Source: a virus. From it: DNA of 64,000 nucleotides. The stretch's first letter is position 1. Each line of letters begins with the position of its first letter. A program made the translations under genes and the position numbers. The notes beneath the pieces were generated by a model. The model made no database searches and was not told where the DNA came from. It saw only the letters and a program-made list of their open reading frames with translations. The DNA is taken from positions 1 through 64,000 of IMG/VR virus record IMGVR_UViG_3300050821_004383; one strand, written 5' to 3'. Positions 2,890 through 47,309 of the stretch are shown here, piece by piece.

Positions 2890-3828
2890 TTAAATGCCGC
2901 GACTGGTGTTCCCTGTTGTGATTATTCCCGCGTCGCCTTGGCGCTCGTTCGCGCGAGCAATCCACTGTTGAACGAACACGTTCTTCTGCATCTCGCTCAA
3001 GCCTGTTGCCTTGGCTAGAAACGCTGCGACGCCACGCTGACGGTAAAGCTGTGCGCGGCTATCATCGACCATCGCTAATGCTTCGGAAAGAAATAGGTTG
3101 TTGTACACGTCCGAGTACTGACTCGGAATCGGGTCCCAGCTAAAGTTGCTCACGAATGCCGATGCCGTTTCCGCCACGCCTGCCGCGTTCGCAAGCACGA
3201 GAGATGTGTTTGTAACGCTCACCACCGTAAACGAGCCGTTGTTAACCGCGTTGGTTACGAACCCGGTGACAATCGCTGTTGCTCCGACCGGGAACGAGAT
3301 GGTATCAAACGACCCTGTGTAGGTCGTGTTACCACCGCTCGCGTTGCTAGAACTGGTGATGAAGAACGGGCCGAACTGTGGAGACAGCTTCTGGTACGTG
3401 AGAGTAGCGGTGTAAATCTTCTCTGGCACGCCTAGGAAGCGAACCGTGTAATTCAAAACGTTTGAAATGATGGACGACGCTTGAACTGATGCCGCGTTCG
3501 GACGCTGTTGAAACGACGAGACAGCCAGCGCCGCGTTGTTTTGAATGTCCTTGATTTCGAAAATATTCCCTTCGTCGTCGGCCAGCGAAATCTTCTCTGC
3601 AAACGCTAAGTCCGGGACCGTTGACAGAACGTAATCCTGTTGTCCTACAACCGTCGGGAAGGTGACTTCCTTACGATTGAAGAACCACGTCAACGGTGGA
3701 TTCAGTATCGAGTTGCGAACCATAGAGGCAATTGAAACCGCAGGCTCTTGTCCGAATCCCGCAGTCAGCGGCGAATACTGAATAAACGGCTTCGCGAAAT
3801 TGATTGAGTGTTGCAGTGTTTGCGTCAT
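2890..3828 (-). CDS. Head-tail adaptor-like virion protein
   Basis: 312 aa; 'W.FNRKEVTFPTVVGQQDY' and 'IPSQYSDVY' adaptor-like motifs; position downstream of capsid. Confidence 0.5.
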   Translation of the reverse strand: MTQTLQHSINFAKPFIQYSPLTAGFGQEPAVSIASMVRNSILNPPLTWFFNRKEVTFPTVVGQQDYVLSTVPDLAFAEKISLADDEGNIFEIKDIQNNAALAVSSFQQRPNAASVQASSIISNVLNYTVRFLGVPEKIYTATLTYQKLSPQFGPFFITSSSNASGGNTTYTGSFDTISFPVGATAIVTGFVTNAVNNGSFTVVSVTNTSLVLANAAGVAETASAFVSNFSWDPIPSQYSDVYNNLFLSEALAMVDDSRAQLYRQRGVAAFLAKATGLSEMQKNVFVQQWIARANERQGDAGIITTGNTSRGI

Positions 3829-24609: not shown

Positions 24610-24684
24610 TGGTTCCGGCGTGTGGATTCGAACCACAATTAGCGGATTCAGAGTCCGCAGTCCTGCCAGTTAAACGACATCGGA
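24610..24684 (-). tRNA. tRNA-Gln(CTG)
   Basis: Cloverleaf, loop CTCTGAA, encoded CCA. Confidence 0.9.
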
Positions 24685-24793
24685 ACAGAAATTGGAGCGG
24701 TGTCCTCGTACTCACTAGAGCGATGGGGTCCTTCTCACCTAGGCACTCACCGCCGAGTGTACTCCCAGATTACCAGACCTACGATTACGAAAT

Positions 24794-24869
24794 TGGTTGG
24801 ATGCGAAGGATTCGGACCTTCATCTGACTGATTCAAAGTCAGCCGTGTTGCCAGTTACACCAGCGTCCA
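24794..24869 (-). tRNA. tRNA-Gln(TTG)
   Basis: Loop CTTTGAA; T-loop TCCGAAT; CCA. Confidence 0.9.
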
Positions 24870-24878
24870 ACAGAAAAT

Positions 24879-24953
24879 TGGTCCTACACCGTGGAATCGA
24901 ACCACGTACGCCCGCCGTTTCAAGACGGCGCTCTACCAATGAGCTAGCGTAGG
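24879..24953 (-). tRNA. tRNA-Phe(GAA)
   Basis: Stem CCGTC/GGCGG, loop TTGAAAC; CCA. Confidence 0.85.
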
Positions 24954-24954
24954 A

Positions 24955-25041
24955 TGGAGGAAGAAGATGAAATCGAATCATCAACCCGCTAGAGTTGGCC
25001 TAGTGTTCGAAACTAGTTGAGCGCCTTGCTCACCATCTTCC
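24955..25041 (-). tRNA. tRNA-Ser(CGA)
   Basis: Loop TTCGAAC, long variable arm; CCA. Confidence 0.85.
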
Positions 25042-25511
25042 AAAACTTTTCTACGAATACGGTCTTTGTAATTCTTCTCACACTCGATGCAATCACGACG
25101 AAGACCGTTCCAATTAGTTCTATTCTTTGCAAATCTATCAACAGAGAAGAACTGTTTATGTGTTCGACACCAAGCCTTGCCTTCTGGTGGTGTTATACGA
25201 TTACAACTGGGTTTTCCCAGTGAACCTTGAATGTGGGGTGTATTACAACGCGTGTGAGAAAATGTCACATTATCTAAATCCCAAAACAACTCAGGAGAGC
25301 GATTCTCCCAAGGACGAATGTGCTCAATACTCAAATCATCAACAGACTCAATCATCTTACCACACTTCACACAAACACTGTCACCGTATTTTTGTAATTG
25401 ACGAAACAAAATCATCTTACGAAGACGATTTGCCGCTGCTCCGTGGGACATACCAAGTTGTTCTGCAATTCTAGCACTGCGTGCTGCATGTGATGCGTGT
25501 GAGTTACCCAT
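24981..25511 (-). CDS. HNH homing endonuclease
   Basis: Likely start MGNSHASH; 'CVKC...SIEHIRPW...NVTFSH..CN' plus C-terminal Cys domain; stop lies inside tRNA-Ser(CGA). Confidence 0.85.
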   Translation of the reverse strand: MGNSHASHAARSARIAEQLGMSHGAAANRLRKMILFRQLQKYGDSVCVKCGKMIESVDDLSIEHIRPWENRSPELFWDLDNVTFSHTRCNTPHIQGSLGKPSCNRITPPEGKAWCRTHKQFFSVDRFAKNRTNWNGLRRDCIECEKNYKDRIRRKVLEDGEQGAQLVSNTRPTLAG

Positions 25512-25551
25512 CGTCGTTGGCTCCTTTAAGCACTTGACTGATGTTTTCAAA

Positions 25552-25638
25552 TGGCGGATGATGAAGGAATCGAACCCTCTCGACCTTTCAGTCGGGACAG
25601 TTTTCAAGACTGCTGCTCCCCATGAAGCCCAATCATCC
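25552..25638 (-). tRNA. tRNA-Ser(TGA)
   Basis: Loop CTTGAAA, long variable arm; CCA. Confidence 0.85.
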
Positions 25639-25646
25639 GTAAAAAT

Positions 25647-26003
25647 TTAGGCTACTTTCTTCGCCTTGCGAATCTTCAAATAGTTTCTCACAGGAAACGT
25701 CATCGTGCCCGCTGCGCATGCAAACGGAAGCCATGAGTGTGCCGCGTCAACCACGCCCGCGTATCCGGATGCTGCTAGAAACGCTAGCACGATTGCCGGA
25801 CGAAGGACCCCGGCGTCCAAAAACGTACGGAACGGGTGAGCCTTCTCGGTGAACCACTTCATCAATTTGTTGCCTTCGGTCTGGCCGTAGTACCAGATGC
25901 CCCAGCGGGTCACAAACACATCTGTCAACATCGCCACGTACCAAAGAACGGCAGCGAAGTTGTAAGTAAAGTCTCCGTTCGGAAGCGTGCGGGGGTCGAA
26001 CAT
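25647..26003 (-). CDS. Membrane protein
   Basis: Start MFDPRT; 'D..T..G.....E.N' with hydrophobic helices; resembles the adjacent ORF. Confidence 0.55.
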   Translation of the reverse strand: MFDPRTLPNGDFTYNFAAVLWYVAMLTDVFVTRWGIWYYGQTEGNKLMKWFTEKAHPFRTFLDAGVLRPAIVLAFLAASGYAGVVDAAHSWLPFACAAGTMTFPVRNYLKIRKAKKVA

Positions 26004-26011
26004 TCGGTCTC

Positions 26012-26323
26012 CTAAACTGGTATCTTCAAATTTCTGATAGCTTCTCTGATGTGCGCGTACCCGGCTTGAAATGCAAAGCCTGCTGCCATCACGTAGCCCG
26101 CGTAAACCGAGAAACGATTCGCTAACAACCCAACCGCAACCTCGCCCGCGATAACAAGAGTGCCCAAGCCATAAACCTTCAATGTGCTGGGTCTGGGTCC
26201 GAACAGCCACGCTGTGTCGGCTTCGTAGTAGTCCGGATTCTTCAAGAACCGAACTGTTGTCCATCCATCGAATAATGCCGCGCCGGATAAAACCACCGAC
26301 GCCACTACTAGTGGTATGTTCAT
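26012..26323 (-). CDS. Membrane protein
   Basis: Start MNIPLVV; three hydrophobic segments, 'DGWTT...YYEAD'. Confidence 0.55.
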   Translation of the reverse strand: MNIPLVVASVVLSGAALFDGWTTVRFLKNPDYYEADTAWLFGPRPSTLKVYGLGTLVIAGEVAVGLLANRFSVYAGYVMAAGFAFQAGYAHIREAIRNLKIPV

Positions 26324-26328
26324 AAAAT

Positions 26329-26414
26329 TGGCGGAACGAGGAGGAGTCGAACCTCCACGTGCTTTCACACGCTGGTTTAGCAAACCAGTCCGGCTACCGT
26401 TTCGGCACCGTTCC
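26329..26414 (-). tRNA. tRNA-Ser(GCT)
   Basis: Loop TTGCTAA, long variable arm; CCA. Confidence 0.9.
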
Positions 26415-26457
26415 AGAAAATGTGGGGCGACCGGAGCCGCCCCGATTTTGTCTCAGA

Positions 26458-28140
26458 TTAAACCTCTACCGTAATACGAGGATTCGTCGGTGCGGCTGGT
26501 GGTGCTGGCGGCACGTTCGGTCCTGATGGCGGTAGCGATATCTGTACGCTTACCTCTGGCGGGTCTAGTGAAACCCACGTCACTGTGTTGTCCTGTGTGA
26601 TGGTATTCAACACTGGAGAGAACACTGGACGATGGGCTGCGTCACTGCTGATACCCGGAACAGAGACTTGCTGAAACGATTGGCTAACGCAATCGAATAC
26701 GATGTCCCCAACGTTGAACTGCTTGTTAGGAGCATAAACCGATAGCGTTGCGGATAAGAACATGACAACTGAATCAGTGTCCAGTGTCACTGCGCCTACG
26801 CGAGCCAGCAATCTGCCGTTGACTCTTACGCCCGTGTTAACGGTGATAGACGCTTGAGCCATGATTGTCCCGGAGAAGTTCGTTCCAACTCCGAGTGTTG
26901 CAGAACTGCCGACTTGCCAGAAAATGTTCGCCGCTTGTGCGCCGCCTAGCAATACGATGTTGCTGTTGCTAGCAGCGGTTGTAAGCGTTGAACCAATTTG
27001 AAAAATGAAAACCGCGTTCGGGTCTCCTAGTCCATCGAGAACCAGGGTCCCGGTGATGCCTACCGAACTTGCGTTCTTATAAACACCCGGTGTGAGAGTC
27101 AACCCGCCTAAATCACCCGGGAGAGCCGTGAACGGACTGCCGCTGGATGTGAGTCCAGAAGCCGATGCCGTTGCTGTCTCCGCCGTTGCTGCTGGGTTCG
27201 TCAACGTGATTGCTGTAATCGTCTGGGCTATGCAAACGAACGTTCCGTTGTTGGAAGCGTTAGTAAAGCCTGTGACCGTGAATCTTTGTCCAACTAGAGC
27301 GTTTCCTGCTGGGAAGGTTCCCACGTATGATGTATTTCCGAATGCGTCTGGTGCAGCAACGGAAGTTACAGGATACGGGCCTGTTGCAGAAAAACCGCCT
27401 ATGCCCGAAGGATTAACAGCGGATGCGGCTGCATTGTAAGCCGTTGTTAGTGCGGCCTGCGCTGCTGCTGCAACGAAGTCCCCGGCGTGAAACACGCCCG
27501 AGATTGCTGCTGGTGCTCCGAAACCAGTGATTGAAGTTCCCGGCCAAACTCCCACGTCACCCGCGACGGTTGTTGCGCCCGTGTTGGTGACAGTAGAACC
27601 TGCCAAGATTTCAAAACTGTTTGCCACTCCCACGTTTGGTGGGGTTGGGCTGGGACCGAACGGAACAGCGACGGAAAGAACGCCGACCGAGTTAGCACTT
27701 GAAATGCCGCCTGCGACCGATTCAATCTCGTAGCTGTAAACGTGGCCCGGGACAACTCCGAAATCCTCAAAGAACGGATTCGGTGTAGCAAGCGCCGAGT
27801 GTACCTCTGCGGTTGCGAACGAACTATTTAGTGTCAACGTTGTCGCAGAAGACGCGACGCATTGAAACTGCCCGTTGTTCGCGGAGTTACCGAAACCTGT
27901 AACGCGGAACACCAATCCTACGAAGGCGTTTGCTGCGCCACCGCTGATAACTCCAGTGTAAACGGCTTGACCGTTAGCGGACTGGGATACCGAGGATAAG
28001 ACGAGCGCTGGTCCTTGCTCAATCAGGCCAACGTTGTACGGAACTAAACTCTCATTTCCGGGTGCTGTACCACGGAAAATGTTGTAGCCATCGACCAGGG
28101 ACGGACTTGGGTCCCATGAGATGGTAATAGAATGTGTCAT
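26458..28140 (-). CDS. Ice-binding-like protein (DUF3494) fused to FN3 and virion modules
   Basis: 'FEILAGSTVTNTGATTVAGDVGV.PG', 'DLGGLTLTPGVY', 'GDPNAVFIFQIGSTL', 'AQAANIFWQVGSSATLG', 'NGRLLA..GAVTLD'. Confidence 0.9.
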   Translation of the reverse strand: MTHSITISWDPSPSLVDGYNIFRGTAPGNESLVPYNVGLIEQGPALVLSSVSQSANGQAVYTGVISGGAANAFVGLVFRVTGFGNSANNGQFQCVASSATTLTLNSSFATAEVHSALATPNPFFEDFGVVPGHVYSYEIESVAGGISSANSVGVLSVAVPFGPSPTPPNVGVANSFEILAGSTVTNTGATTVAGDVGVWPGTSITGFGAPAAISGVFHAGDFVAAAAQAALTTAYNAAASAVNPSGIGGFSATGPYPVTSVAAPDAFGNTSYVGTFPAGNALVGQRFTVTGFTNASNNGTFVCIAQTITAITLTNPAATAETATASASGLTSSGSPFTALPGDLGGLTLTPGVYKNASSVGITGTLVLDGLGDPNAVFIFQIGSTLTTAASNSNIVLLGGAQAANIFWQVGSSATLGVGTNFSGTIMAQASITVNTGVRVNGRLLARVGAVTLDTDSVVMFLSATLSVYAPNKQFNVGDIVFDCVSQSFQQVSVPGISSDAAHRPVFSPVLNTITQDNTVTWVSLDPPEVSVQISLPPSGPNVPPAPPAAPTNPRITVEV

Positions 28141-28334
28141 GAACTGCTCCTTGCACGCAATAAACTACATGCGCGTTGGGAGCAACGTGATACCCAGCTA
28201 GCTGACGCAACCACAATCCTGATTGTCGCACTCTATGGCGAGAGCGCGAGGACCGGACACATTCATTTTCAGTCACTTCCAAAGAAGTGAACCAAAAGGG
28301 AAGGAGGCTTTAACTCCGACTGACTACCTGATGC

Positions 28335-28439
28335 TTACTTCTTTGGATTACTTACACAAAATTTGCAAACTGGTCTTCTGTGAGGATGGCTGTAAATTAG
28401 TTCCTCTGCCAGTTTCTTGCATACGGGGCACATCTTCAT
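28335..28439 (-). CDS. Tiny Zn-finger protein
   Basis: Own translation MKMCPVCKKLAEELIYSHPHRRPVCKFCVSNPKK; GGAGG RBS. Confidence 0.5.
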   Translation of the reverse strand: MKMCPVCKKLAEELIYSHPHRRPVCKFCVSNPKK

Positions 28440-28533
28440 GGCTGTCACCTCCAGCCATAATACTACCACACCCGTGGTACCGCGTCTGTTCAATATTGGA
28501 CAGTACTGTTAATACAAGACACTTATCTAAAAT

Positions 28534-28609
28534 TGGCAGGTCATGAGGGATTCGAACCCCCACCGCATCGTTTTGGAGACGAGCATGCAACCAGTAACAC
28601 TTATGGCCT
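28534..28609 (-). tRNA. tRNA-Trp(CCA)
   Basis: Loop CTCCAAA; CCA end. Confidence 0.9.
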
Positions 28610-28618
28610 GTTGAAAAT

Positions 28619-28706
28619 TGGTGGAAAGTCGAGGACTCGAACCTCGGAAGCCCACAAGGGGCATCTGGTTTACAGCCAGAAGCAATTGCCGCTATGCGAA
28701 CCTTCC
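28619..28706 (-). tRNA. tRNA-Tyr(GTA)
   Basis: Loop CTGTAAA, long variable arm. Confidence 0.9.
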
Positions 28707-28778
28707 ACAATGCTAGTTGCGCCTCGGTGGCTCTATGGACTGCTCTCACCGATATGTTTAATGTCACAGCGCAAAACT

Positions 28779-28852
28779 TGGAGCCTCGTCGAGGAATCGG
28801 ACCCCGGCGTTCGCTTTACGAAAGCGACGTACTGCCACTATACTAACAAGGC
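28779..28852 (-). tRNA. tRNA-Thr(CGT)
   Basis: Loop TTCGTAA; T-loop TCCGATT. Confidence 0.9.
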
Positions 28853-28861
28853 TCGGAAAAT

Positions 28862-28935
28862 TGGAGCGAAATGCGGAAATCGAATCCGCGCCTGGACCTT
28901 GGCAAGGTCCCGTTCTGCCACTATACCAATCTCGC
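28862..28935 (-). tRNA. tRNA-Gly(GCC)
   Basis: Loop TTGCCAA; U73. Confidence 0.9.
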
Positions 28936-28947
28936 CCAGAAAATTTG

Positions 28948-29019
28948 CCGACCGTATTAGCCGTTATACGGACCCAGGTTGTTGAGACCCAGGAGAGGAT
29001 TCGAACCTCAAATCGTCGG
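28948..29019 (-). ncRNA. Circularly permuted tRNA-like RNA (YrlA/Y-RNA-like architecture)
   Basis: Order: CCGAC, T arm (TGAGG TTCGAAT CCTCT), closed acceptor hairpin (CCTGGGT/ACCTGGG), D arm (CGTA..TACG), GTCGG. Confidence 0.7.
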
Positions 29020-29081
29020 ACTTCTCGGACGCGTGGCTGGCCGTGTCACAGCCCTTTGGACTCGCGCTACCCGATTAGTAT

Positions 29082-29157
29082 TGGAGCACAATCGTGGATT
29101 CGAACCACGGTGACCGAGGTACAAGCTCGGTATATTGGACCGCTATATGAATCGTGC
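29082..29157 (-). tRNA. tRNA-Thr(TGT)
   Basis: Loop CTTGTAC. Confidence 0.9.
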
Positions 29158-29158
29158 T

Positions 29159-29232
29159 TGGAGCTTCGACGTGGAATTGAACCACGACTTGTTCCTTACC
29201 AAGGAACCGTTCTGCCGTTAGACTATCAAAGC
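29159..29232 (-). tRNA. tRNA-Thr(GGT)
   Basis: Loop TTGGTAA. Confidence 0.9.
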
Positions 29233-29243
29233 TCGGAAATTAT

Positions 29244-29708
29244 TTAGGCGTGGTCACCCTTGTCGCCCTTATCGCCTTTGTCACCCTTGTCGCCACGGTC
29301 GCCCTTGTCTCCTTTATCACCCTTGGAGCCTACTGCGCCGTCCTTGCCATCGACGCCTTTATCGCCTGCGTCGCCCTTATCACCTTTGTCGCCCGGGTCG
29401 CCCTTCAAACCGTGTACGCCGTTCTCGCCTGGGTCGCCCTTGTCGCCCTTCAAGCCATGCTCACCGTTGGTGCCAGCATCGCCTTTGTCGCCCTTCGGGC
29501 CGACTGGGCCGGGTACGCCTTGTGGTCCCACAGGGCCTTGGAGACCTTGTGCGCCGACCGGACCCGCGATACCGCGCGGACCTAGAGGGCCTGCTTGACC
29601 TGCCGGACCTGCTGGTCCGACGTGCTTCTTCAAACTCAAAATGAATGCAGCTACAGACACTGCGGCTGTAACAGCAGAAACCAATTCAGCGGGGGCAATC
29701 ATTGGCAT
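29244..29708 (-). CDS. Membrane-anchored collagen-like protein
   Basis: Start MPMIAPAEL (AAGGAG RBS); N-terminal hydrophobic helix then GXY repeats (GDKGDK). Confidence 0.85.
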
Positions 29709-29734
29709 CTCCTTATTTTTAACTTCTACAAAAT

Positions 29735-29810
29735 TGGAGCGGCGAACGGGATTCGAACCCGTACGTTCTGCTTGGAAGGCAGACATGCTAGCCGTTAACA
29801 TCACAGCCGC
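29735..29810 (-). tRNA. tRNA-Gly(TCC)
   Basis: Loop CTTCCAA. Confidence 0.9.
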
Positions 29811-29818
29811 TTTGAAAT

Positions 29819-29897
29819 TGGTTGCGGAGGTGGGATTTGAACCCACGATAACAAGGTTATGAGTCTTGTGTTTTAGACCAGGCTAAACTACCCCGCT
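29819..29897 (-). tRNA. tRNA-Met(CAT), initiator-like
   Basis: Loop CTCATAA; 1:72 mismatch. Confidence 0.85.
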
Positions 29898-29907
29898 ATA
29901 GAAAATT

Positions 29908-29983
29908 TGGTTCTGGTCGCTGGATTCGAACCAGCTACCTTCCGCTTATCGAGCGGACGCCCGTCCACATGTGCTCGACCAGA
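29908..29983 (-). tRNA. tRNA-Ile(GAT)
   Basis: Loop TCGATAA (C33). Confidence 0.85.
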
Positions 29984-29991
29984 ACAGAAAT

Positions 29992-30067
29992 TGGTGGACC
30001 GTTCCGGCTCTGCCCCGGACGCCTCGGAGGTGCAAGCTCCGCGTTCTCCTGAATGAACTAACAGCCC
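29992..30067 (-). tRNA. tRNA-Ala(TGC)
   Basis: Loop CTTGCAC; G3:U70 present; atypical T-loop GGCAGAG. Confidence 0.85.
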
Positions 30068-30071
30068 AAAA

Positions 30072-30491
30072 TCATCGTCCACGTTTAGTATCGTGGCACT
30101 CTTTACAGTTTATTTGAAACCCACTCCAACGAGTTTCTTTCTTATAAAAGTTATCCACCGGAAGAAACTGCTGATGACCACCGCACCATGACGTGCCTTC
30201 TGGTCCAACAAACTTTCGTAAACTGCCTCCGTGATGCACATGGGGACGATTACATTGTAAATGCGAGAACGCTATATTATCCAAATCCCAAAAGAGTTCA
30301 GCAGAACGACCTTCCCATGGAAGCTTATGCTCTATGCTTAACTCTTCTACGACTAAAATCTCTTTGTTGCACTTGAAACAAATATTTTCTTTCAACTTTT
30401 TCAAAAGATGAAACAAAATATTCTTTCTTAATCTTCCATTGGCCGTGCCGTGAGGCATGCCTAGCGTTGCAGCTTTCTGCGTATTACTCAT
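30072..30491 (-). CDS. HNH homing endonuclease
   Basis: 'CFKC...SIEHKLPW...NIAFSH..CN'; paralogue of 24981-25511. Confidence 0.85.
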   Translation of the reverse strand: MSNTQKAATLGMPHGTANGRLRKNILFHLLKKLKENICFKCNKEILVVEELSIEHKLPWEGRSAELFWDLDNIAFSHLQCNRPHVHHGGSLRKFVGPEGTSWCGGHQQFLPVDNFYKKETRWSGFQINCKECHDTKRGR

Positions 30492-30529
30492 AATCGTTAA
30501 CCCTCTTTGGGTTGTTGATTAAGTTAAAT

Positions 30530-30606
30530 TGGTACTCGCGGCGGGATTTGAACCCGCGTTCTTGGCTTGAAAGGCCAGCGTCCTGGGCCGACTAGACGAC
30601 ATGAGC
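30530..30606 (-). tRNA. tRNA-Glu(TTC)
   Basis: Loop CTTTCAA. Confidence 0.9.
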
Positions 30607-30689
30607 ACTACATGCGCCGATACAATTCGCTTTTTGGGGAAGTGGCTTTATGCATTTATAGCCAATCCGATAATTGTATCGTACGAACT

Positions 30690-30765
30690 TGGTAGCGTCG
30701 GCGGGATTTGAACCCGCGTGACCAGATTGAGAATCTGGCATCCTAGACCACTAGATGACATCGCC
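30690..30765 (-). tRNA. tRNA-Glu(CTC)
   Basis: Loop TTCTCAA. Confidence 0.9.
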
Positions 30766-30773
30766 ACAGAAAT

Positions 30774-30866
30774 TGGTTGTCAGCCTCGGTGCCGACCCGA
30801 GTCGTCGCGCTAATCAGGCGCTCTCCTCGACTTATAAGGTCGAGCCGCATGCCGATGCTGCCGACA
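30774..30866 (-). tRNA. Atypical tRNA with TAT (Ile) anticodon and long variable arm
   Basis: Acceptor TGTCGGC/GCTGACA+ACCA; 6-bp anticodon stem, loop CTTATAA; V-arm GCGC..GCGC; T-loop GTCGGCA. Confidence 0.7.
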
Positions 30867-30954
30867 AAAGGCTGGGCCGACGGGGAATCTAACCCACAAT
30901 GGGGCAGCCTCTGGCGTTCCTTCCAGCGCATCCCATCACTCGTCCCAGAGAAAT

Positions 30955-31030
30955 TGGTAGCTCGTAAGAGAATCGAACTCTTCCTATCCGGGTGTAGGCC
31001 GGATGCATACGACCAGTTTGCTAACAAGCT
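30955..31030 (-). tRNA. tRNA-Val(TAC)
   Basis: Loop CCTACAC (C33). Confidence 0.85.
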
Positions 31031-31037
31031 ACAGAAA

Positions 31038-31154
31038 TCAACGGTGGTAATAATGAATCCAGAGAACCAGGGCACTCGCGCTAATCACTACCCCCAGGAT
31101 GTTGCACACTGTCCGTATCAGTGCCATCCACTGGTCGAATGTTAGCCTTTTCAT
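31038..31154 (-). CDS. Small membrane peptide
   Basis: Own translation MKRLTFDQWMALIRTVCNILGVVISASALVLWIHYYHR. Confidence 0.45.
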   Translation of the reverse strand: MKRLTFDQWMALIRTVCNILGVVISASALVLWIHYYHR

Positions 31155-31341
31155 TGTCCTTCTTCTTTGTTCTGGTCTCGTACCACTTTCTTCTCAACCC
31201 CAAGTATTCGAGTTGAGCCTTCAAACTTTCTTCCGCTGCGTGGCGCATCGCGCGGTCATCGCGCCAAATGCCCACCAGGAAGTACAACGCGACTAAGTCA
31301 ACTACCAACGCCGCAACCGAAGCTACGTTCGCTATAGTCAT
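31081..31341 (-). CDS. Small membrane-anchored protein
   Basis: 86 aa with N-terminal hydrophobic helix. Confidence 0.5.
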   Translation of the reverse strand: MTIANVASVAALVVDLVALYFLVGIWRDDRAMRHAAEESLKAQLEYLGLRRKWYETRTKKKDNEKANIRPVDGTDTDSVQHPGGSD

Positions 31342-31435
31342 ATTCGCTCACAAAGTTGTGCCCCAACTAGTAACTTCAACAGACCGTCAGGGTCTTGCCG
31401 CGCGTATCTGCTAGTTTACTCGGCGCGGAAAAATT

Positions 31436-31511
31436 TGGTCGAGCGCCAGAGACTCGAACTCTGACCCTACCCGTTAAAAGCGGGATATGCTGCCCCTAAC
31501 ACCTGCACTCG
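31436..31511 (-). tRNA. tRNA-Lys(TTT)
   Basis: Loop CTTTTAA. Confidence 0.9.
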
Positions 31512-31796
31512 ACGGTATTTCTTTGTGAAACTGTGTCCAAGCGCCTTAGTCAACTCTTCGTGGCACTCTTGACATTGCAGTTCACATTTCAAAACTTCTT
31601 TCCAAAACTTTTCATCTGAATACGAAGAACCATCAGCGAGTGTGAACTCTTTTGTTTCCGGGTCCTTGTGATGAAACTGTAATTCTTCTTGCGACCCGCA
31701 AGTCTCGCACCGCGTTCCAAGAAACATGATTGCGCGAATGCGACGAAGTTGCCAGCGGCGCTTCATGTACTCATTCATGTATTCATTTGTACTCAT
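31467..31796 (-). CDS. HNH endonuclease
   Basis: 'CETCG...LQFHHKDP..K...KCELQCQECH'; stop lies inside tRNA-Lys(TTT). Confidence 0.85.
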   Translation of the reverse strand: MSTNEYMNEYMKRRWQLRRIRAIMFLGTRCETCGSQEELQFHHKDPETKEFTLADGSSYSDEKFWKEVLKCELQCQECHEELTKALGHSFTKKYRRVQVLGAAYPAFNG

Positions 31797-31802
31797 AAAA
31801 AT

Positions 31803-31879
31803 TGGTGCGCCGCCTCAGACTTGAACTGAGACCAAGCCTCCTTAAGAGGGAGGTATTCTGCCGCTCGAAATCGCAGCGC
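31803..31879 (-). tRNA. tRNA-Lys(CTT)
   Basis: Loop CTCTTAA. Confidence 0.9.
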
Positions 31880-31892
31880 ACTGAAAATTATT

Positions 31893-32187
31893 TGGTTGCG
31901 CTATAGCCCGGTTTCTGTCGAGGACGAACATTCCTCTAAGCACGCTACCCGCTCGTCATCCTGCTCAATAAGCAGTCAGAGCCTATTTGCGCTTGCACCC
32001 GTGTGGAGTGCCTTCGCTCGAATGAGGGTTTCCAACATGTGAAGATGGATAACCCTACGAAGCCTTACCCGAATCCTTGCGGACCCCGCATCTTCCACGG
32101 CACGGTGTTGAGATGTGACCGGAACTTCCTCGCTGACGTTTAGCCACTATCCGGACTCATACGCCATCGCGTTCGTCTACGCTACCA
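31893..32187 (-). ncRNA. rnpB: Phage-encoded RNase P RNA
   Basis: CR-I GAGGAAGTTCCGGT and CR-V ACAGAAACCGGGCT form P4 with bulged U; P2 GACGAAC/GTTCGTC; P1; GGTGCAAG; P15 with GGT; P16/P17. Confidence 0.9.
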
Positions 32188-32300
32188 AAATTAATCCGGG
32201 GGAGGTTTTCGTTACCCGTCCCGGCACCCAAACGATTCGACTAGTCTACTTCGAGTGTTGCCCACAAGGGGCACCCCCGCACGTGTAGGGCCGACAAACT

Positions 32301-32377
32301 TGGACTCCTCGGCTAGACTGTAACTAGCTAAGAGCGGGTTTGCAATCCGCCGTCTCGACATCTTCGACATCGAGGAG
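32301..32377 (-). tRNA. tRNA-Cys(GCA)
   Basis: Loop TTGCAAA; U73; atypical T-loop TTACAGT. Confidence 0.85.
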
Positions 32378-32382
32378 AAACT

Positions 32383-32468
32383 TGGTGCGCCGCACAGGAT
32401 TCGGACCTGTACGCCATTTCTGGCCGGGGGTTTTAAGTCCCCTACGTCTGCCGTTCCGCCAGCAGCGC
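32383..32468 (-). tRNA. tRNA-Leu(TAA)
   Basis: Loop CTTAAAA, long variable arm. Confidence 0.9.
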
Positions 32469-32522
32469 AATATCTACCCGGCTTGCTGTATATCCTTCAA
32501 CAGTGTTCGCCACCGGGAATCT

Positions 32523-32611
32523 TGGTCGCCCGCCCCGGAGTCGAACCGGGACTCTACTTTATTCGAACCGCGTTTTGAGTGCGGCGCGTCTGCCAGTTCC
32601 GCCAGCAGGCG
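32523..32611 (-). tRNA. tRNA-Leu(CAA)
   Basis: Loop CTCAAAA, long but weakly paired variable arm. Confidence 0.85.
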
Positions 32612-32613
32612 AT

Positions 32614-32688
32614 TGGTAGCCCATGAAGGACTCGAACCTTCATCGCTTGATTCGTAGTCAAGCATCCTATCCATTGAACGAACAGGCC
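32614..32688 (-). tRNA. tRNA-Arg(ACG)
   Basis: Loop CTACGAA. Confidence 0.9.
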
Positions 32689-32698
32689 ACTGTAAAAT

Positions 32699-32776
32699 TG
32701 GAGGCCCCGGTCGGATTCGAACCGACTTTTGTACGGGTTAGAACGCCGTTGAGATATCCATTTTCTCGACGGAGCC
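32699..32776 (-). tRNA. tRNA-Arg(TCT)
   Basis: Loop GTTCTAA, C31:C39 mismatch, A20 present. Confidence 0.75.
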
Positions 32777-32785
32777 TCTGAAACT

Positions 32786-32872
32786 TGGTGGGCCGCGAGG
32801 GATTCGAACCCCCACGCTTTTCACGGCACTGGTTTCTAAGACCAGCATGTCTGCCAATTCCATCAGCAGCCC
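32786..32872 (-). tRNA. tRNA-Leu(TAG)
   Basis: Loop CTTAGAA, long variable arm. Confidence 0.9.
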
Positions 32873-33027
32873 ACAGAAATCCTGGCGGTATTTGTCATCG
32901 CGCCCCGCCGGAAGCGCATCGGATGATGTTTAGTCACCGAGAGTTTTGCCCCTTACCAGTGCACGAGGCCACGCACCCAGTAGCTAGCTGGGGATGTTTA
33001 ACTCTCTGTTGCAACGTCGTACAAAAT

Positions 33028-33101
33028 TGGTCAGGAATCGTGGAATCGAACCACGGCCTCATGCTTCCGACGCACGTAGACTACCACTATCAGAATACCT
33101 G
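33028..33101 (-). tRNA. tRNA-Pro(CGG)
   Basis: Loop GTCGGAA. Confidence 0.85.
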
Positions 33102-33110
33102 ACGTAAAAT

Positions 33111-33185
33111 TGGCTCCATCCCTAGGATTCGAACCTAGACCTGTTCGGTTAACAGCCGAGCGTCCTACCGTTGGACCAGAATGGA
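33111..33185 (-). tRNA. tRNA-Asn(GTT)
   Basis: Loop CTGTTAA. Confidence 0.9.
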
Positions 33186-33192
33186 ACTGAAC

Positions 33193-33573
33193 TCAATGCC
33201 CGGTAGTTTGATATTTTATTCGACGACGTTCTGTTGTGTACACTTTTCTCATGTACCCAGCAACTTGTCCTCTTCGAACTCGTATCGCTTCTTCGGGCGA
33301 ATACTTTCTTCTAATTCGACGGGCATCTGTGTTGCAGGCTCTGTGACTGAAAGCGATGTTCTCCAAAGAGAAGAACACGGTCCTCGGGTCACTGCTGTGC
33401 AACCACGGCTCTTTGTGGTCTATCGAGAGGTCTCGACTTTCCGCAATTTGCTTACCGCATCGAAAACAAAAATCTCTTTTCACTTCCTTCACTAACCCGA
33501 AAAGAATTTCTTTTCTAAGTTGGTGACAGGCTGTTCCAAACGGAACACCTAATTGCTGTTGTTTCTTATCCAT
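33193..33573 (-). CDS. HNH homing endonuclease
   Basis: 'CFRC...SIDHKEPW...NIAFSH..CN'; third paralogue. Confidence 0.85.
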   Translation of the reverse strand: MDKKQQQLGVPFGTACHQLRKEILFGLVKEVKRDFCFRCGKQIAESRDLSIDHKEPWLHSSDPRTVFFSLENIAFSHRACNTDARRIRRKYSPEEAIRVRRGQVAGYMRKVYTTERRRIKYQTTGH

Positions 33574-33670
33574 TCAAACCATCCTTTAAGATGGTTCGAA
33601 TCCGATACTGTACCAGCCACTCGGTTTAAGTCCGAGAACTTTTACAACCCGGGCGTTACTCCGGTGAAAT

Positions 33671-33748
33671 TGGCGGTCCATACGGGATTTGAACCCGTGG
33701 TCTTCTCCGTGACAGGGAGACGAGGACTCCTGACTCCTCCAACAGACC
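33671..33748 (-). tRNA. tRNA-Asp(GTC)
   Basis: Loop CTGTCAC. Confidence 0.9.
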
Positions 33749-33757
33749 GCAGAAAAT

Positions 33758-33836
33758 TGGTCGAGGAACCTGGATTTGAACCAGGGGTCTCATGCTTCCA
33801 AAGCACGCGGGAACGGCCAGACTTCCCCATTCCTCG
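33758..33836 (-). tRNA. tRNA-Pro(TGG)
   Basis: Loop TTTGGAA. Confidence 0.9.
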
Positions 33837-33999
33837 AAAAATTTCTCGCTTTCCTCAGCGTCGCCACTTAAGGCTAGGTGGACTATCTGCGAGATGCTGA
33901 CCCGTCACTGGGCCACTTGATTCTTTAGTTGACCGTGTAAATGCCGGGTCCCATCGGTGTTGCTCGTCCCAAACTCTCTGTGTCTTTCATCGTGAAACC

Positions 34000-34028
34000 A
34001 TCCTAGCACAGTTCTCGAACTTTGTCAA
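34000..34028 (-). promoter_or_regulatory. Sigma70 promoter driving the tRNA array
   Basis: TTGACA-17-TAGGAT with TG extension. Confidence 0.75.
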
Positions 34029-34047
34029 GCACTATTTTCGAGAATCT

Positions 34048-34362
34048 TTACTTCTTCGAATAAGCGCGGCCTGGGTAGTTACGAGCGTATGCGTGAGCGT
34101 CGTCTCCCGGCTGCTCGGTCTGCTTGCCGATGTGCTCCATGCTGCACGGCAATCCCTTGTGGGAACCGTTGGCGCTTACGCCCATCGAGTTCGAACGTCC
34201 GGCCTTCAATGCGGCTGCATCGTGAGAAGTCTCGTGACGAACCTTCTCGGCCTTGGGTGTGCTACGGCCTGGATACTTGTGCGCGTGCGGCTGGTCGTGG
34301 GTCATCACTGTCTCGGGTGCGTGGGCCATGCCCGCCGCTGTCTTTTCGCTGTACTTCGCCAT
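34048..34362 (-). CDS. Hydrophilic hypothetical protein
   Basis: 104 aa, internal repeat 'HA....YPGR'. Confidence 0.55.
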   Translation of the reverse strand: MAKYSEKTAAGMAHAPETVMTHDQPHAHKYPGRSTPKAEKVRHETSHDAAALKAGRSNSMGVSANGSHKGLPCSMEHIGKQTEQPGDDAHAYARNYPGRAYSKK

Positions 34363-34424
34363 TTTCTCATTCCTCGCGTTGCCTCACCTTTCGGTACGGG
34401 GCACGCTTCGTACTTCTAAATTTT

Positions 34425-34501
34425 TGGGGTGGGTGATGGGTCTCGAACCCACTCTGGCCCGATTCACAGTCGAGCGCGTCACCTGTTTCGCCTCACTCAC
34501 C
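34425..34501 (-). tRNA. tRNA-His(GTG)
   Basis: Loop CTGTGAA; encoded G-1 and C73. Confidence 0.9.
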
Positions 34502-45662: not shown

Positions 45663-45704
45663 TACCAAAGTACTATTGACGGAAAAACAGAACGGGTGTA
45701 GTAT
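45662..45704 (+). promoter_or_regulatory. Early promoter with GTAC motif driving an ncRNA
   Basis: GTACCAAAGTACTA-TTGACG-17-TAGTAT. Confidence 0.75.
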
Positions 45705-45711
45705 TCTTTCA

Positions 45712-45932
45712 GAGTCGGACACCTTAACCGAGGTGCAATAAGTGGCCCTCGGACGTTGCTAGAAGCACCTTAGAAAAGTAGGATGGCGCAGCAGGCCAGT
45801 AATGCCGAGAGGCAATCCTACACGGGCGCAACGGTTGGATGCGGAGGCCGCAGGGAGGTTCATCACCTCACCTCGACGCCTTACCGGGTAGGCTGATAAC
45901 CCCCGGTGGTTCGAATCCCGCCCGACTCACCC
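45712..45932 (+). ncRNA. ~220-nt structured RNA with tRNA-like ends
   Basis: 5' GAGTCGG pairs with 3' CCGACTC+ACC; GGTTCGAATCC T-loop; many internal helices; T tract after. Confidence 0.65.
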
Positions 45933-46335
45933 TTTTTGGACGCGTGAGTGTACCGCGTCAAGCGAGACGGCTGCAAGCGCCTGCCCGTAGGTCGAAACGG
46001 GTACCTTCCCCTCCTTCGGTCGGGAAGGGTACACGGCTTGCACGCGTATGGCGACTATATCGAAAGTCGTATCCTTCGAGAAGCGTCGCTCGAAGGATTA
46101 TTAGACGCCGTGCACCGGGTGCCACGTTAAACAATGCGATGCGCTAGGCCAGCGCAAGGCGAGCACCCGGACTAAATTAGAGGAGGCACCATGTGGGACC
46201 TGCAAACTCTGAACCGATTGAACGCGGAAGTGGAAGCGAAACAAAAGCAGGAAGCGAGCGAAGGGGAGTTGGAGTTTGAAGAGGCTCGCAGGTTGGATAC
46301 GCGTAACAAAGATTAAGCTGGGAGCGACGTTGCTT

Positions 46336-46491
46336 CTAGCAGTACAGGGCGGCAATTCTGGCGTCCGGGTGAACACCGCAGCGGCGGGAGCCGAAGAGCG
46401 GAACCGGGGAGCGTCGGTCGGCGGTAGCACCCTAGGGCGAAACCAAAGTCTAACCCAAAGTCTAACCCAAAGTCTAACCCTGTACTGCTAG
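46336..46491 (+). repeat. 14-bp perfect inverted repeat enclosing three 12-bp tandem repeats
   Basis: CTAGCAGTACAGGG/CCCTGTACTGCTAG; (CCAAAGTCTAAC)x3 at 46443-46478. Confidence 0.85.
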
Positions 46492-46724
46492 GCGCATCGG
46501 AGCATCAGGCATCACTCCTGACGGAACCGGAAGGAACTTAAAAATGTCAGGGCAGTCCTTCATGACTGGTGCGCCACTAGTTGTACGAAAACGTGTCGAA
46601 TTGCGGAATTGTACGGGAGAATACAAGTGCTCGGACTGTGGATTATCATCGCAGCAGTTTTTGGACTGGTCGCGATTTTCGTGATTGACCTCGGTAGAGT
46701 AGACAAAATATCTAGGAGAAAAAG

Positions 46725-47309
46725 ATGAGCAATAAAAAAGTACCAGAAGGTTTTCATAAGCATACGAACGGCGGCGGTACTGTTCAGGACACCGCTCACG
46801 TAGAAGAATCAGTTTACGTTGGGCCAGACGCGCGGGTGTTCGGCGACGCGCGGGTGTCCGGCAACGCGCGGGTGTCCGACAACGCGTGGGTGTTCGGCGA
46901 CGCGCGGGTGTCCGGCAACGCGTGGGTGTTCGGCGACGCGCGGGTGTCCGGCGACGCGTGGGTGTTCGGCGACGCGCGGGTGTCCGACAACGCGCGGGTG
47001 TTCGGCGACGCGCGGGTGTCCGGCAACGCGTGGGTGTTCGGCGACGCGCGGGTGTCCGGCAACGCGTGGGTGTTCGGCGACGCGCGGGTGTCCGGCGACG
47101 CGTGGGTGTTCTCACCACTTTACATTCAAGGACCACGCCACGCTCTTACAAATTGCAAATACGGCTACATACAAATTGGTTGCCATTGCAATACTTTCGC
47201 ATACTGGCAGAAGCATTACAAAGCAATCGGGCGAGCCGAAGGCTACACGGAGGAAGAAATCGAACAATACGGTCTCTTCATTCAAATGTTCGCAAAGATA
47301 GGGAAATAA
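46725..47309 (+). CDS. Hexapeptide-repeat (left-handed beta-helix) protein
   Basis: (DARVSG/NAWVFG)n encoded by 18-bp tandem repeats. Confidence 0.85.
   Translation: MSNKKVPEGFHKHTNGGGTVQDTAHVEESVYVGPDARVFGDARVSGNARVSDNAWVFGDARVSGNAWVFGDARVSGDAWVFGDARVSDNARVFGDARVSGNAWVFGDARVSGNAWVFGDARVSGDAWVFSPLYIQGPRHALTNCKYGYIQIGCHCNTFAYWQKHYKAIGRAEGYTEEEIEQYGLFIQMFAKIGK

What the first reader, a model, noticed from the sequence alone, without database searches (positions are those of the whole stretch)
45712..45937. Stand-alone ~220-nt early RNA with tRNA-like ends and pseudoknots, not tmRNA
Seen: it starts ~7 nt after a consensus promoter; perfect 7-bp acceptor-like stem, T-loop GGTTCGAATCC, 3' ACCC then TTTTT; internal helices ACCT/AGGT with CCGAGG/CCTCGG crossing, CGTTGC/GCAACG, GTAGGAT/ATCCTAC, TGCC-GAGA-GGCA, TGCGG/CCGCA, GAGGT/ACCTC, GCCT/AGGC with CCGGG/CCCGG crossing. 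It lacks G3:U70 and a typical tag ORF and lies 11 kb from the tRNA array on the other strand. Inference: a new phage ncRNA class, perhaps an anti-defence decoy or ribosome/synthetase modulator.
Basis: partly seen in the sequence, partly recalled or inferred. Interest (0 to 1): 0.8.

Follow-up and report, generated by a model that had tools for sequence, protein, structure and literature searches.

The report
Phage RNA built on host lysine-tRNA
An uncultured T5-like soil phage makes, from an early promoter, a 218-base RNA that is a host-type lysine tRNA with extra folded parts and no anticodon, so it cannot decode; its job is unknown, as it is for the tRNA-like stable RNAs annotated in phage T5.

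Summary
The RNA gene is real (window 45712-45929, + strand). It is absent from Rfam and it is not a tmRNA. Two other distinct versions exist (L006/L016 and L029, each about 168 nt).

Across the three versions a fully nested fold of 38 base pairs is 100% paired. Fifteen pairs change on both sides.

The RNA derives from a host-type tRNA-Lys(UUU):
- The 5' acceptor strand, the variable loop, the T stem, the T loop and the 3' acceptor strand match Bryobacter-type tRNA-Lys almost letter for letter.
- The D arm is enlarged.
- The anticodon loop is replaced by an 18-68-nt loop.
- Two hairpins sit inside the T stem and make a gap-free four-way junction.

The gene starts at the predicted +1 of a conserved early promoter. 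No terminator follows and no CCA is encoded, although all 30 phage tRNAs encode CCA. It is therefore the first module of a long structured leader of the early A1 ("DNA transfer protein") operon. It is stand-alone only if it is cut out.

My best reading is a tRNA-scaffolded stable RNA. A role as a decoy for tRNA-Lys binders or nucleases is possible but untested.

Earlier notes of this scan describe other expanded, anticodon-less tRNA look-alikes in unrelated phages. The verdict is a new variant of a known kind, of moderate interest.

The parts
45676..45704 (+). Early sigma-70-like promoter (-35 TTGACG, 17-nt spacer, -10 TAGTAT), with GTAC repeats upstream
   Evidence: The same promoter with the same 7-nt distance to the first G of the RNA is present in L006 and L029. 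A related promoter lies in L002-L004.
45712..45718 (+). Acceptor stem, 5' strand GAGUCGG (identical to Bryobacter-type tRNA-Lys positions 1-7)
45719..45727 (+). Invariant 9-nt linker ACACCUUAA (replaces tRNA positions 8-9)
45728..45752 (+). H1, the D-arm analogue. A 6-bp stem CCGAGG/CCUCGG with a conserved 13-nt loop; its AGUGG resembles the D-loop AGUUGG.
   Evidence: 4 of 6 pairs change on both sides
45754..45833 (+). H2, the anticodon-stem analogue. A 6-bp stem CGUUGC/GCAACG closes a 68-nt loop with no anticodon loop. The loop is 18-19 nt in L006 and L029.
   Evidence: 2 pairs change on both sides, with three pair types at one position. The first two pairs equal tRNA-Lys 28:42 and 29:41.
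45778..45821 (+). Window-specific 44-nt hairpin (GUAGGAU...AUCCUAC with an inner UGCC-GAGA-GGCA) inserted in the H2 loop
   Evidence: Absent from L006 and L029. No comparative test is possible.
45834..45840 (+). Variable-loop analogue GUUGGAU (tRNA-Lys has G43 + UGGUC)
45841..45843 (+). T stem lower part, 5' strand GCG (tRNA positions 49-51). It pairs with 45919-45921.
   Evidence: C:G changes to U:A in L006, a change on both sides. The same G/A variation is seen in bacterial tRNA-Lys.
45844..45882 (+). P5 hairpin inserted in the T stem. The 5-bp base is GAGGC/GCCUU. The apical helix is GAG/CUC. The loop holds the conserved UCAUC.
   Evidence: 4 of 5 base pairs and 2 of 3 apical pairs change on both sides. 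These helices were not part of model R1.
45883..45907 (+). P6 hairpin, abutting P5. The 6-bp stem is ACCGGG/CCCGGU. The nearly invariant 13-nt loop is UAGGCUGAUAACC.
   Evidence: 2 pairs change on both sides
45908..45921 (+). T stem upper part (GG/CC), canonical 7-nt T loop UUCGAAU, and T stem 3' strand (tRNA positions 52-65)
   Evidence: Canonical register and spacing. Identical to tRNA-Lys.
45922..45929 (+). Acceptor stem 3' strand CCGACUC plus discriminator A73
45930..45937 (+). Non-conserved A/U-rich trailer (CCCUUUUU). CCA is not encoded and it is not a terminator.
   Evidence: All 30 phage tRNAs encode CCA followed by AUUUU-type trailers.

Best explanation
SHOWN.
- The locus encodes a non-decoding RNA of 218 nt. 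The core is about 168 nt in relatives.
- It is an expanded derivative of host-type tRNA-Lys(UUU).
- It keeps, almost letter for letter, the tRNA's acceptor stem (both strands), variable loop, T stem, T loop and discriminator.
- The D arm is enlarged to 6 bp with a 13-nt loop that still carries GG.
- The anticodon loop is replaced by an 18-68-nt loop.
- Two abutting hairpins (P5, P6) are inserted between T-stem positions 51 and 52. They give a four-way junction with no unpaired bases.
- The first acceptor base sits at the predicted +1 of a conserved early promoter.
- No terminator follows and no CCA is encoded.
- Further conserved structured leader modules and the early A1 ('DNA transfer protein') operon follow.
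- The RNA is accessory: five complete relatives lack it, and three relatives have the same promoter feeding the next leader module directly.

INFERRED.
- The tRNA part acts as a natural 'tRNA scaffold'.
- It lets host tRNA enzymes release and stabilise the RNA from the 5' end of the early transcript. This would involve a cut in the A/U-rich trailer, trimming to A73, and possibly CCA addition.
- The conserved added loops (the H1 loop, UCAUC and UAGGCUGAUWACC) would carry the actual, still unknown, function.
- Because the retained parts copy the host's tRNA-Lys rather than the phage's own, the RNA may act as an uncleavable stand-in for a host factor or defence nuclease that binds tRNA-Lys. I put this guess at about 0.2.
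For: Family and fold:
- Homologues are L006/L016 and L029.
- Covariance model R1 scores 143-207 bits for the three copies and finds nothing else.
- The fold has 38 pairs, all formed in every copy. Fifteen pairs change on both sides. 0 of 500 shuffles reach this, and slid controls collapse.
- P5, P5a and the lower T stem were found by an unbiased column-pair scan and were not in the model.
- The constrained fold lies within 3-6 kcal/mol of the MFE.

tRNA-Lys ancestry:
- The 22-nt 3' end hits 24 places among 185,579 species genomes. 22 of them are tRNA-Lys genes.
- Against Bryobacter tRNA-Lys the match is 7/7 in the 5' acceptor strand and 21/21 from G53 to A73.
- It is 10/12 across the end of the anticodon stem, the variable loop and the T-stem 5' strand.
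- The G64/A64 variants mirror those in bacterial tRNA-Lys.
- The phage's own two tRNA-Lys genes are very different.

Transcription and ends:
- The promoter and its spacing are conserved.
- There is no terminator.
- CCA is encoded in 30 of 30 phage tRNAs but not here.

Leader context.

The A1 homologue.

Precedent: T5 RNA1 and RNA2 are annotated 'tRNA-like stable RNA with unknown functions'.
Against: - There are no expression data.
- Only three distinct sequences exist, all from close relatives. The invariant acceptor stem, upper T stem and loops are therefore untested by covariation.
- No defined 3' end is known. Release from the leader is an assumption.
- The four-way junction in the T stem might block recognition by tRNA enzymes.
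- The defence nucleases known to target tRNA-Lys act on the anticodon stem-loop. AriB additionally reads the D-loop (10.1101/2025.02.04.636281). These are exactly the parts altered here, which weakens the decoy guess.
- The phage encodes no CCA-adding enzyme or RtcB.
Confidence: 0.6

Rival explanations
1. The RNA is a cis-acting leader module that is never released. The tRNA-shaped fold at the very 5' end of the early transcript protects the mRNA from 5'-end-dependent decay. Alternatively it works with the downstream structured modules (the 'spacer' and 'element 2') to control read-through or translation of the early operon.
For: - No terminator follows, and the U-run is not conserved.
- The RNA always lies between the early promoter and element 2, which in L002-L004 follows the promoter directly.
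- 10-11 nt at the H2 stem/loop border are complementary to the 5' closing strand of element 2 in the window and in L029.
Against: - That complementarity is absent in L006 and shows no covariation.
- Exact retention of the tRNA-Lys acceptor stem, T loop and discriminator is not needed for a mere 5' protective hairpin.
- Five complete relatives run the operon without it.
Confidence: 0.2
2. The RNA is a decaying pseudogene. A host tRNA-Lys gene captured by the phage was disrupted by insertions, has no function, and is transcribed only because it sits behind an early promoter.
For: - It is clearly derived from tRNA-Lys.
- It is accessory and rare: three lineages only.
- An extra 44-nt insertion in the window shows ongoing insertion.
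Against: - Fifteen compensatory pair changes occur with no broken pair, including inside the inserted hairpins.
- Loops and tRNA-derived parts are invariant while the stems change.
- The junction geometry has no unpaired base and is kept in all three copies.
- The promoter-to-+1 spacing is conserved.
Confidence: 0.06
3. The site is an attP-type site. The tRNA-Lys 3' end would be the core at which the phage (or a satellite) integrates into the host tRNA-Lys gene.
For: - 22-24 nt are identical to the 3' end of bacterial tRNA-Lys, and the G/A variant tracks bacterial variants.
- The phage has a tyrosine recombinase.
Against: - The recombinase lies 34 kb away. It is a core gene also present in relatives that lack the RNA.
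- The 5' acceptor strand, variable loop and T-stem 5' strand are also present and pair with the 3' part, with covariation.
- None of the 24 genome hits carries the RNA's interior, so no attR-like junction was seen.
Confidence: 0.04
4. The RNA is a degenerate or miniature tmRNA that rescues stalled ribosomes.
For: It has tRNA-like ends and a large structured middle, and some large phages do encode tmRNA (own knowledge).
Against: - G3:C70 is present instead of G3:U70 in all copies.
- There is no tmRNA hit in Rfam even at E<=10, and none with ARAGORN.
- No pseudoknots are present.
- No reading frame is conserved across the 50-nt indel, and the middle is base-paired with covariation.
- The UUCGAC-type D-loop motif of tmRNAs is absent (own knowledge of tmRNA consensus).
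Confidence: 0.02

Closest known systems
Phage T5 RNA1 and RNA2 (AY543070: 30501-30644 and 32959-33083), annotated 'tRNA-like stable RNA with unknown functions'. By my own knowledge, also T4 species 1/2 RNAs (rnaC, rnaD).
   Same: They are phage-encoded, 125-145 nt or longer, with a tRNA-like acceptor stem and T arm and an expanded interior without a usable anticodon. Their function is unknown. The phage type is also T5-like: an A1 homologue is present and relatives have direct terminal repeats.
   Different: - No sequence or model similarity. R1 does not hit them, and its best hit in that T5 stretch is T5 tRNA-Lys at 12.8 bits.
- The T5 RNAs lie inside the tRNA cluster. This RNA lies 11 kb away on the other strand, at the head of an early operon.
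- This RNA copies the host's tRNA-Lys and has a two-hairpin insertion inside the T stem.
Ordinary tRNA-Lys(UUU) of Bryobacter-type bacteria (Acidobacteriota; also Armatimonadota and Planctomycetota)
   Same: The acceptor stem, discriminator A73, T loop and T stem are identical. The variable loop and the first two anticodon-stem pairs are nearly identical.
   Different: There is no 7-nt anticodon loop and no canonical D arm. The linker is 9 nt instead of U8-A9. A 64-nt insertion sits in the T stem. CCA is not encoded. Rfam tRNA and ARAGORN do not detect it.
tmRNA tRNA-like domain
   Same: The acceptor and T arm close a large non-tRNA interior.
   Different: See the membership test: no G3:U70, no tag frame, no pseudoknots and no model match.
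Engineered 'tRNA scaffolds' for expressing recombinant RNA (own knowledge: Ponchon and Dardel 2007, which used tRNA-Lys3 or tRNA-Met with the anticodon loop replaced by the cargo)
   Same: This is the same design logic. A tRNA body keeps its processing and stability signals while the anticodon loop is replaced by other RNA.
   Different: This one is natural. It carries additional insertions in the D arm and T stem. Processing has not been shown.
Bacterial and phage Y-RNA-like YrlA (PMC4201824)
   Same: It is a non-coding RNA with a tRNA-like module that also occurs in phages.
   Different: In YrlA the RNA ends form the Ro-binding stem and the tRNA-like part is distal. Here the ends form the acceptor stem. 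There is no Rfam hit.

Membership tests
tmRNA | G3:U70 wobble pair in the acceptor stem (alanine identity) | tested here: not met
   G3:C70 in all three homologues
tmRNA | Match to tmRNA covariance models or ARAGORN | tested here: not met
   No hit at gathering score or at E<=10
tmRNA | Conserved tag reading frame with resume codon and stop | tested here: not met
   The interior differs by a 50-nt indel and is base-paired with covariation. No frame is shared.
tmRNA | Pseudoknot ring (PK1-PK4) and a long P2 helix | tested here: not met
The covariation-supported fold is fully nested.
tRNA (RF00005) | 7-bp acceptor stem plus discriminator | tested here: met
   GAGUCGG/CCGACUC plus A73, invariant
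tRNA (RF00005) | 5-bp T stem with a 7-nt T loop in canonical register | tested here: met
   Pairs 49-53:61-65 all form, but the 5' strand is interrupted between positions 51 and 52 by P5 and P6.
tRNA (RF00005) | 7-nt anticodon loop with U33 and an anticodon | tested here: not met
   The loop closed by H2 is 18, 19 or 68 nt, and its sequence is not conserved as an anticodon loop.
tRNA (RF00005) | Canonical D arm (3-4 bp, 7-11-nt loop with GG) | tested here: inconclusive
   H1 has 6 bp and a 13-nt loop holding AGUGG. The position is right but the size is wrong.
tRNA (RF00005) | Detected by the tRNA model or ARAGORN; CCA encoded as in this phage's tRNAs | tested here: not met
   No hit. 30 of 30 phage tRNAs encode CCA and this RNA does not.
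Phage tRNA-like stable RNAs (T5 RNA1/RNA2 type) | Phage-encoded RNA with a tRNA-like acceptor/T arm and no usable anticodon | tested here: met
Phage tRNA-like stable RNAs (T5 RNA1/RNA2 type) | Accumulates as a discrete stable RNA | not testable with these tools
Phage tRNA-like stable RNAs (T5 RNA1/RNA2 type) | Sequence or structure homology to T5 RNA1/RNA2, and location in the tRNA cluster | tested here: not met
   R1 does not match them. This gene lies 11 kb from the array on the other strand.
attP core in a tRNA 3' end | Identity to the 3' end of a host tRNA gene | tested here: met
   The 22-nt match hits tRNA-Lys genes at 22 of 24 places in 185,579 species genomes.
attP core in a tRNA 3' end | Adjacent integrase whose presence goes with the site; only the 3' part of the tRNA present | tested here: not met
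   The recombinase is 34 kb away and present in relatives without the RNA. The 5' strand and internal tRNA parts are present and paired.
YrlA / bacterial Y RNA | RNA ends form the Ro-binding stem; Rfam match | tested here: not met
   The ends form the acceptor stem, and there is no Rfam hit.

The most novel reading that the evidence does not exclude
The RNA would be an early-expressed, uncleavable mimic of the host's own tRNA-Lys. It keeps the host tRNA's acceptor stem, elbow and variable loop but replaces the scissile anticodon stem-loop. It would soak up or misdirect a host factor specific for tRNA-Lys, for example a PrrC/PARIS-like defence nuclease or another enzyme acting on tRNA-Lys. Meanwhile the phage translates with its own, very different tRNA-Lys genes. 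This would be the first RNA decoy against tRNA-targeting immunity.
Probability: 0.15. Interest if true: 0.85.

Novelty: new variant of a known kind. Interest (0 to 1): 0.55.

Why it matters
Phages are known to carry tRNAs, and a few carry 'tRNA-like stable RNAs' (T5, T4) whose function has stayed unknown for decades.

This case shows, with base-pair covariation, how such an RNA can be built from a host tRNA. All parts that tRNA-handling enzymes read are kept. The decoding loop is removed. New hairpins are grafted on, including a gap-free four-way junction inside the T stem.

The copy of the host's tRNA-Lys, the early promoter and the phage's own divergent tRNA-Lys genes give a concrete, testable link to tRNA-targeting defence. 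tRNA-Lys is a recurrent target (PARIS: PMC11464382; PrrC: own knowledge).

The case also adds to a growing set of expanded, anticodon-less tRNA look-alikes noted by this scan in unrelated phages. This suggests the tRNA shape is a general carrier for phage small RNAs. It also suggests a Bryobacter-like host for this uncultured phage group.

Tried and rejected
- blastn of the locus against 50,697 phage records found no match.
- Exact-pattern scans of IMG/VR with the 3' end, the 5' domain, the P6 loop and the T-junction gave only the two known relatives plus chance or ordinary tRNA hits.
- The metagenome scan gave one new homologue (L029) and four chance hits.
- DNA and covariance-model searches of complete relatives found nothing. 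The DNA search covered 10 records and model R1 covered 5.
- The pseudoknot models ACCU/AGGU and GCCU/AGGC were rejected on comparative grounds.
- I first tried a local, shifted-register T stem (UGG/CCR with an 8-nt loop). RNAalifold proposed a long-range GGAU/AUCC pairing. I dropped both in favour of the split canonical T stem, which has a change on both sides at 50:64.
- A possible GAUG/CAUC loop pairing is invariant, so it could not be tested.
- Readings as tmRNA, attP or a reverse-transcriptase primer were rejected. The genome has no RT, and the recombinase is not linked to the RNA.
- The genome encodes no CCA-adding enzyme or RtcB.
- The idea that the window's UCAUCACCUC loop mimics the 16S anti-Shine-Dalgarno end was dropped because it is not conserved in L006 or L029.

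Full report
**1. Is it there?**

A sigma-70-like promoter, TTGACG-17-TAGTAT, lies at 45676-45704. The first G of a perfect 7-bp terminal stem (GAGUCGG/CCGACUC) follows 8 nt after the -10 hexamer. The motif GGUUCGAAUCC sits just before the 3' strand.

ARAGORN finds 30 tRNAs at 24.6-34.5 kb on the minus strand and nothing here. Rfam 15 gives no hit at gathering scores. It gives only noise at E<=10 with permissive filters. The L029 homologue gives none either.

The window is part of a 98.5-kb IMG/VR virus record.

**2. Relatives**

Neighbouring proteins led to 18 related phage loci.

- nhmmer found one homologue, L006/L016:5541-5707, 167 nt.
- A metagenome pattern scan found a second, L029:1425-1592, 168 nt.
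- Both lack a 44-nt hairpin that only the window has (45778-45821).
- Covariance model R1, built from L006 and L029, scores the window at 143 bits (E about 1e-35) and finds nothing else.
- The model search finds nothing in five complete relatives, and a DNA search of ten related records finds only T-arm-sized matches.

The RNA is therefore real, conserved and accessory.

**3. Fold**

I scanned all column pairs of the model-made alignment for helices that pair in all three sequences. The result is a fully nested structure:

- An acceptor stem of 7 bp.
- H1, with 6 bp and a 13-nt loop.
- H2, with 6 bp.
- A T stem split into a lower part (positions 49-51:63-65) and an upper part (52-53:61-62), with a canonical 7-nt T loop.
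- Two abutting hairpins between positions 51 and 52. P5 has 5 bp plus an apical 3 bp and a loop with UCAUC. P6 has 6 bp and the loop UAGGCUGAUWACC.

All four helices at this point meet without a single unpaired base.

Support for the fold:

- All 38 pairs form in every copy.
- Fifteen pairs change on both sides.
- None of 500 shuffles reaches the observed values.
- Sliding the partners by 1-3 columns drops pairing to 36-53%.
- P5, P5a and the lower T stem were not in model R1, so they are independent of the model-fitted alignment.
- The constrained fold is within 3-6 kcal/mol of each MFE.

- ACCU/AGGU disappears in L006.
- GCCU pairs with the upstream GAGGC (P5), not with AGGC.
- UGCGG/CCGCA overlaps two covarying helices.

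No pseudoknot remains.

**4. What it derives from**

The 22-nt 3' end (T loop to A73) was scanned in one genome for each of 185,579 species. It hit 24 places, and 22 of them are tRNA-Lys genes. The other two are a truncated copy at a contig end and an att-like remnant.

Bryobacter-type tRNA-Lys(UUU) matches the RNA as follows:

- 7/7 in the 5' acceptor strand.
- 21/21 from G53 to A73.
- 10/12 across the end of the anticodon stem, the variable loop and the T-stem 5' strand (CGGUGGUCGUGG in the tRNA against CGGUGGAUGUGG in the RNA).

The RNA's G64 or A64, each with its compensating C50 or U50, mirrors the two variants seen in bacterial tRNA-Lys.

- H2 therefore corresponds to the anticodon stem; its first two pairs are retained.
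- H1 corresponds to the D arm; its loop keeps AGUGG against the tRNA's AGUUGG.
- The P5/P6 pair is an insertion in the T stem.

The phage's own tRNA-Lys(UUU) and tRNA-Lys(CUU) genes are quite different from this host type. Even in phage T5 the best R1 hit is T5's tRNA-Lys, at 12.8 bits.

**5. Transcription context**

All three copies keep the promoter and the 7-nt gap to the first G.

The 3' tail is not conserved: CCCUUUUU in the window, ACUUUUU in L006 and AAAGUUUAG in L029. No terminator is predicted. By contrast, all 30 phage tRNAs encode CCA followed by AUUUU-type trailers.

Downstream lie further conserved structured modules:

- A 'spacer' module is shared with L029.
- 'Element 2' (window 46326-46499) has a long covarying closing helix. 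It is found in the window, L002, L003, L004, L006 and L029.

In L002-L004 the same promoter feeds element 2 directly. The tRNA-derived RNA is thus an insertion at the head of the leader of an early operon. That operon encodes small proteins, an endonuclease VII and a 573-aa homologue of the T5 A1 'DNA transfer protein'.

**6. Mechanism**

*Shown:* this is a non-decoding, host-tRNA-Lys-derived fold at +1 of an early transcript.

*Inferred, about 0.6 together:* the tRNA body works as a scaffold. It lets host tRNA-maturation enzymes cut the RNA out of the transcript and keep it stable. The conserved grafted loops do the work.

*Speculative, about 0.15-0.2:* the RNA copies the host's tRNA-Lys, not the phage's. 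tRNA-Lys is a recurrent target of anti-phage nucleases (PARIS: PMC11464382; PrrC: own knowledge). The RNA may therefore be a decoy.

Against the decoy idea: AriB reads the anticodon stem and the D-loop (10.1101/2025.02.04.636281). These are the very parts altered here.

Rival readings:

| Rival | Weight | Main point |
|---|---|---|
| Unreleased cis-acting leader module | 0.2 | No terminator. A 10-11-nt complementarity to element 2 is kept in the window and L029 but not in L006. |
| Pseudogene | 0.06 | Contradicted by the covariation. |
| attP site | 0.04 | The tyrosine recombinase is 34 kb away and is core to relatives lacking the RNA. |
| tmRNA | 0.02 | Fails the membership tests. |

The genome encodes no reverse transcriptase, CCA-adding enzyme or RtcB.

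**7. Comparison and novelty**

The closest known things are the 'tRNA-like stable RNAs with unknown functions' annotated in phage T5, RNA1 and RNA2. By my own knowledge, T4 RNAs C and D are similar.

This RNA is not homologous to the T5 RNAs. It lies outside the tRNA cluster, copies a host tRNA and has a T-stem four-way junction.

Earlier notes of this scan report other expanded, anticodon-less tRNA look-alikes in unrelated phages. I did not check them. They are leads, not evidence.

Verdict: a new variant of a known kind, with interest about 0.55. Expression data could not be obtained.

Noticed in passing
window 46326-46499 (+); L002:3501-3647; L003 about 3545-3685; L004 about 3520-3660; L006:5728-5870; L029:1816-1930: 'Element 2' is a conserved structured leader just upstream of the first ORF of the early operon. 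Its long closing helix changes sequence between phages but always pairs (CUAGCAG.../...CUGCUAG, followed by GGCGCAUCG). It is more widespread than the tRNA-derived RNA and is not in Rfam. The window copy holds a triple 12-nt repeat.
   Followed up: partly
window 45975-46174 (+); L029:1607-1815: A roughly 200-nt 'spacer' module lies between the tRNA-derived RNA and element 2. It is about 70% identical between the two phages and rich in hairpins. It is absent from L006. It may be a third structured RNA module of the same leader.
   Followed up: no
window 31888-32188 (-): Inside the tRNA array there is a match to bacterial RNase P RNA class A. It scores 92.5 bits (gathering score 100), E 8.6e-29, over the full model length but in only 301 nt. 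A phage-encoded, shortened RNase P RNA would be unusual.
   Followed up: partly
L009/L017:2965-3097 (+): A related phage has a different tRNA-shaped gene after a strong promoter upstream of its A1 gene. It has a normal acceptor stem, D arm and T arm. Its anticodon-like loop ACGUGAU has C33. About 55 nt are inserted between the anticodon arm and the T arm. ARAGORN does not call it.
   Followed up: partly
window 24610-34500 (-): All 30 phage tRNAs encode CCA, nearly always followed by A/U-rich trailers such as AUUUU. Rfam calls a 31st tRNA at 29995-30067 that ARAGORN misses. No tRNA-Ala or tRNA-Cys was seen.
   Followed up: partly
window 46191-46316 (+) and 46725-47309 (+): A 41-aa ORF with a strong RBS and a 194-aa YdcK-type beta-solenoid repeat protein lie between the leader modules and the conserved early genes. 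L029 lacks the 41-aa ORF, and neither was seen in the L006 stretch examined, so they look like recent insertions.
   Followed up: no
G000:C1:80225-80668 (outside the window); L057-L064: A tyrosine recombinase of about 310 aa (Phage_integrase) is present in eight of the ten phage records of this group that were searched, though relatives have direct terminal repeats. Whether these phages integrate is open.
   Followed up: partly
window 45757-45767 versus 46331-46341; L029 about 1469-1478 versus about 1819-1828: The border of the H2 stem and loop (UGCUAGAAGCA) is complementary to the 5' closing strand of element 2 (UGCUUCUAGCA). Ten nt of this are kept in L029 but none in L006. It may be a long-range interaction within the leader, or chance helped by the palindromic CUAG.
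   Followed up: partly
L036:6573-6594 (Cupriavidus contig): An isolated tRNA-Lys 3' fragment without the rest of the tRNA. It looks like an att remnant of some integrated element and is unrelated to this phage.
   Followed up: no
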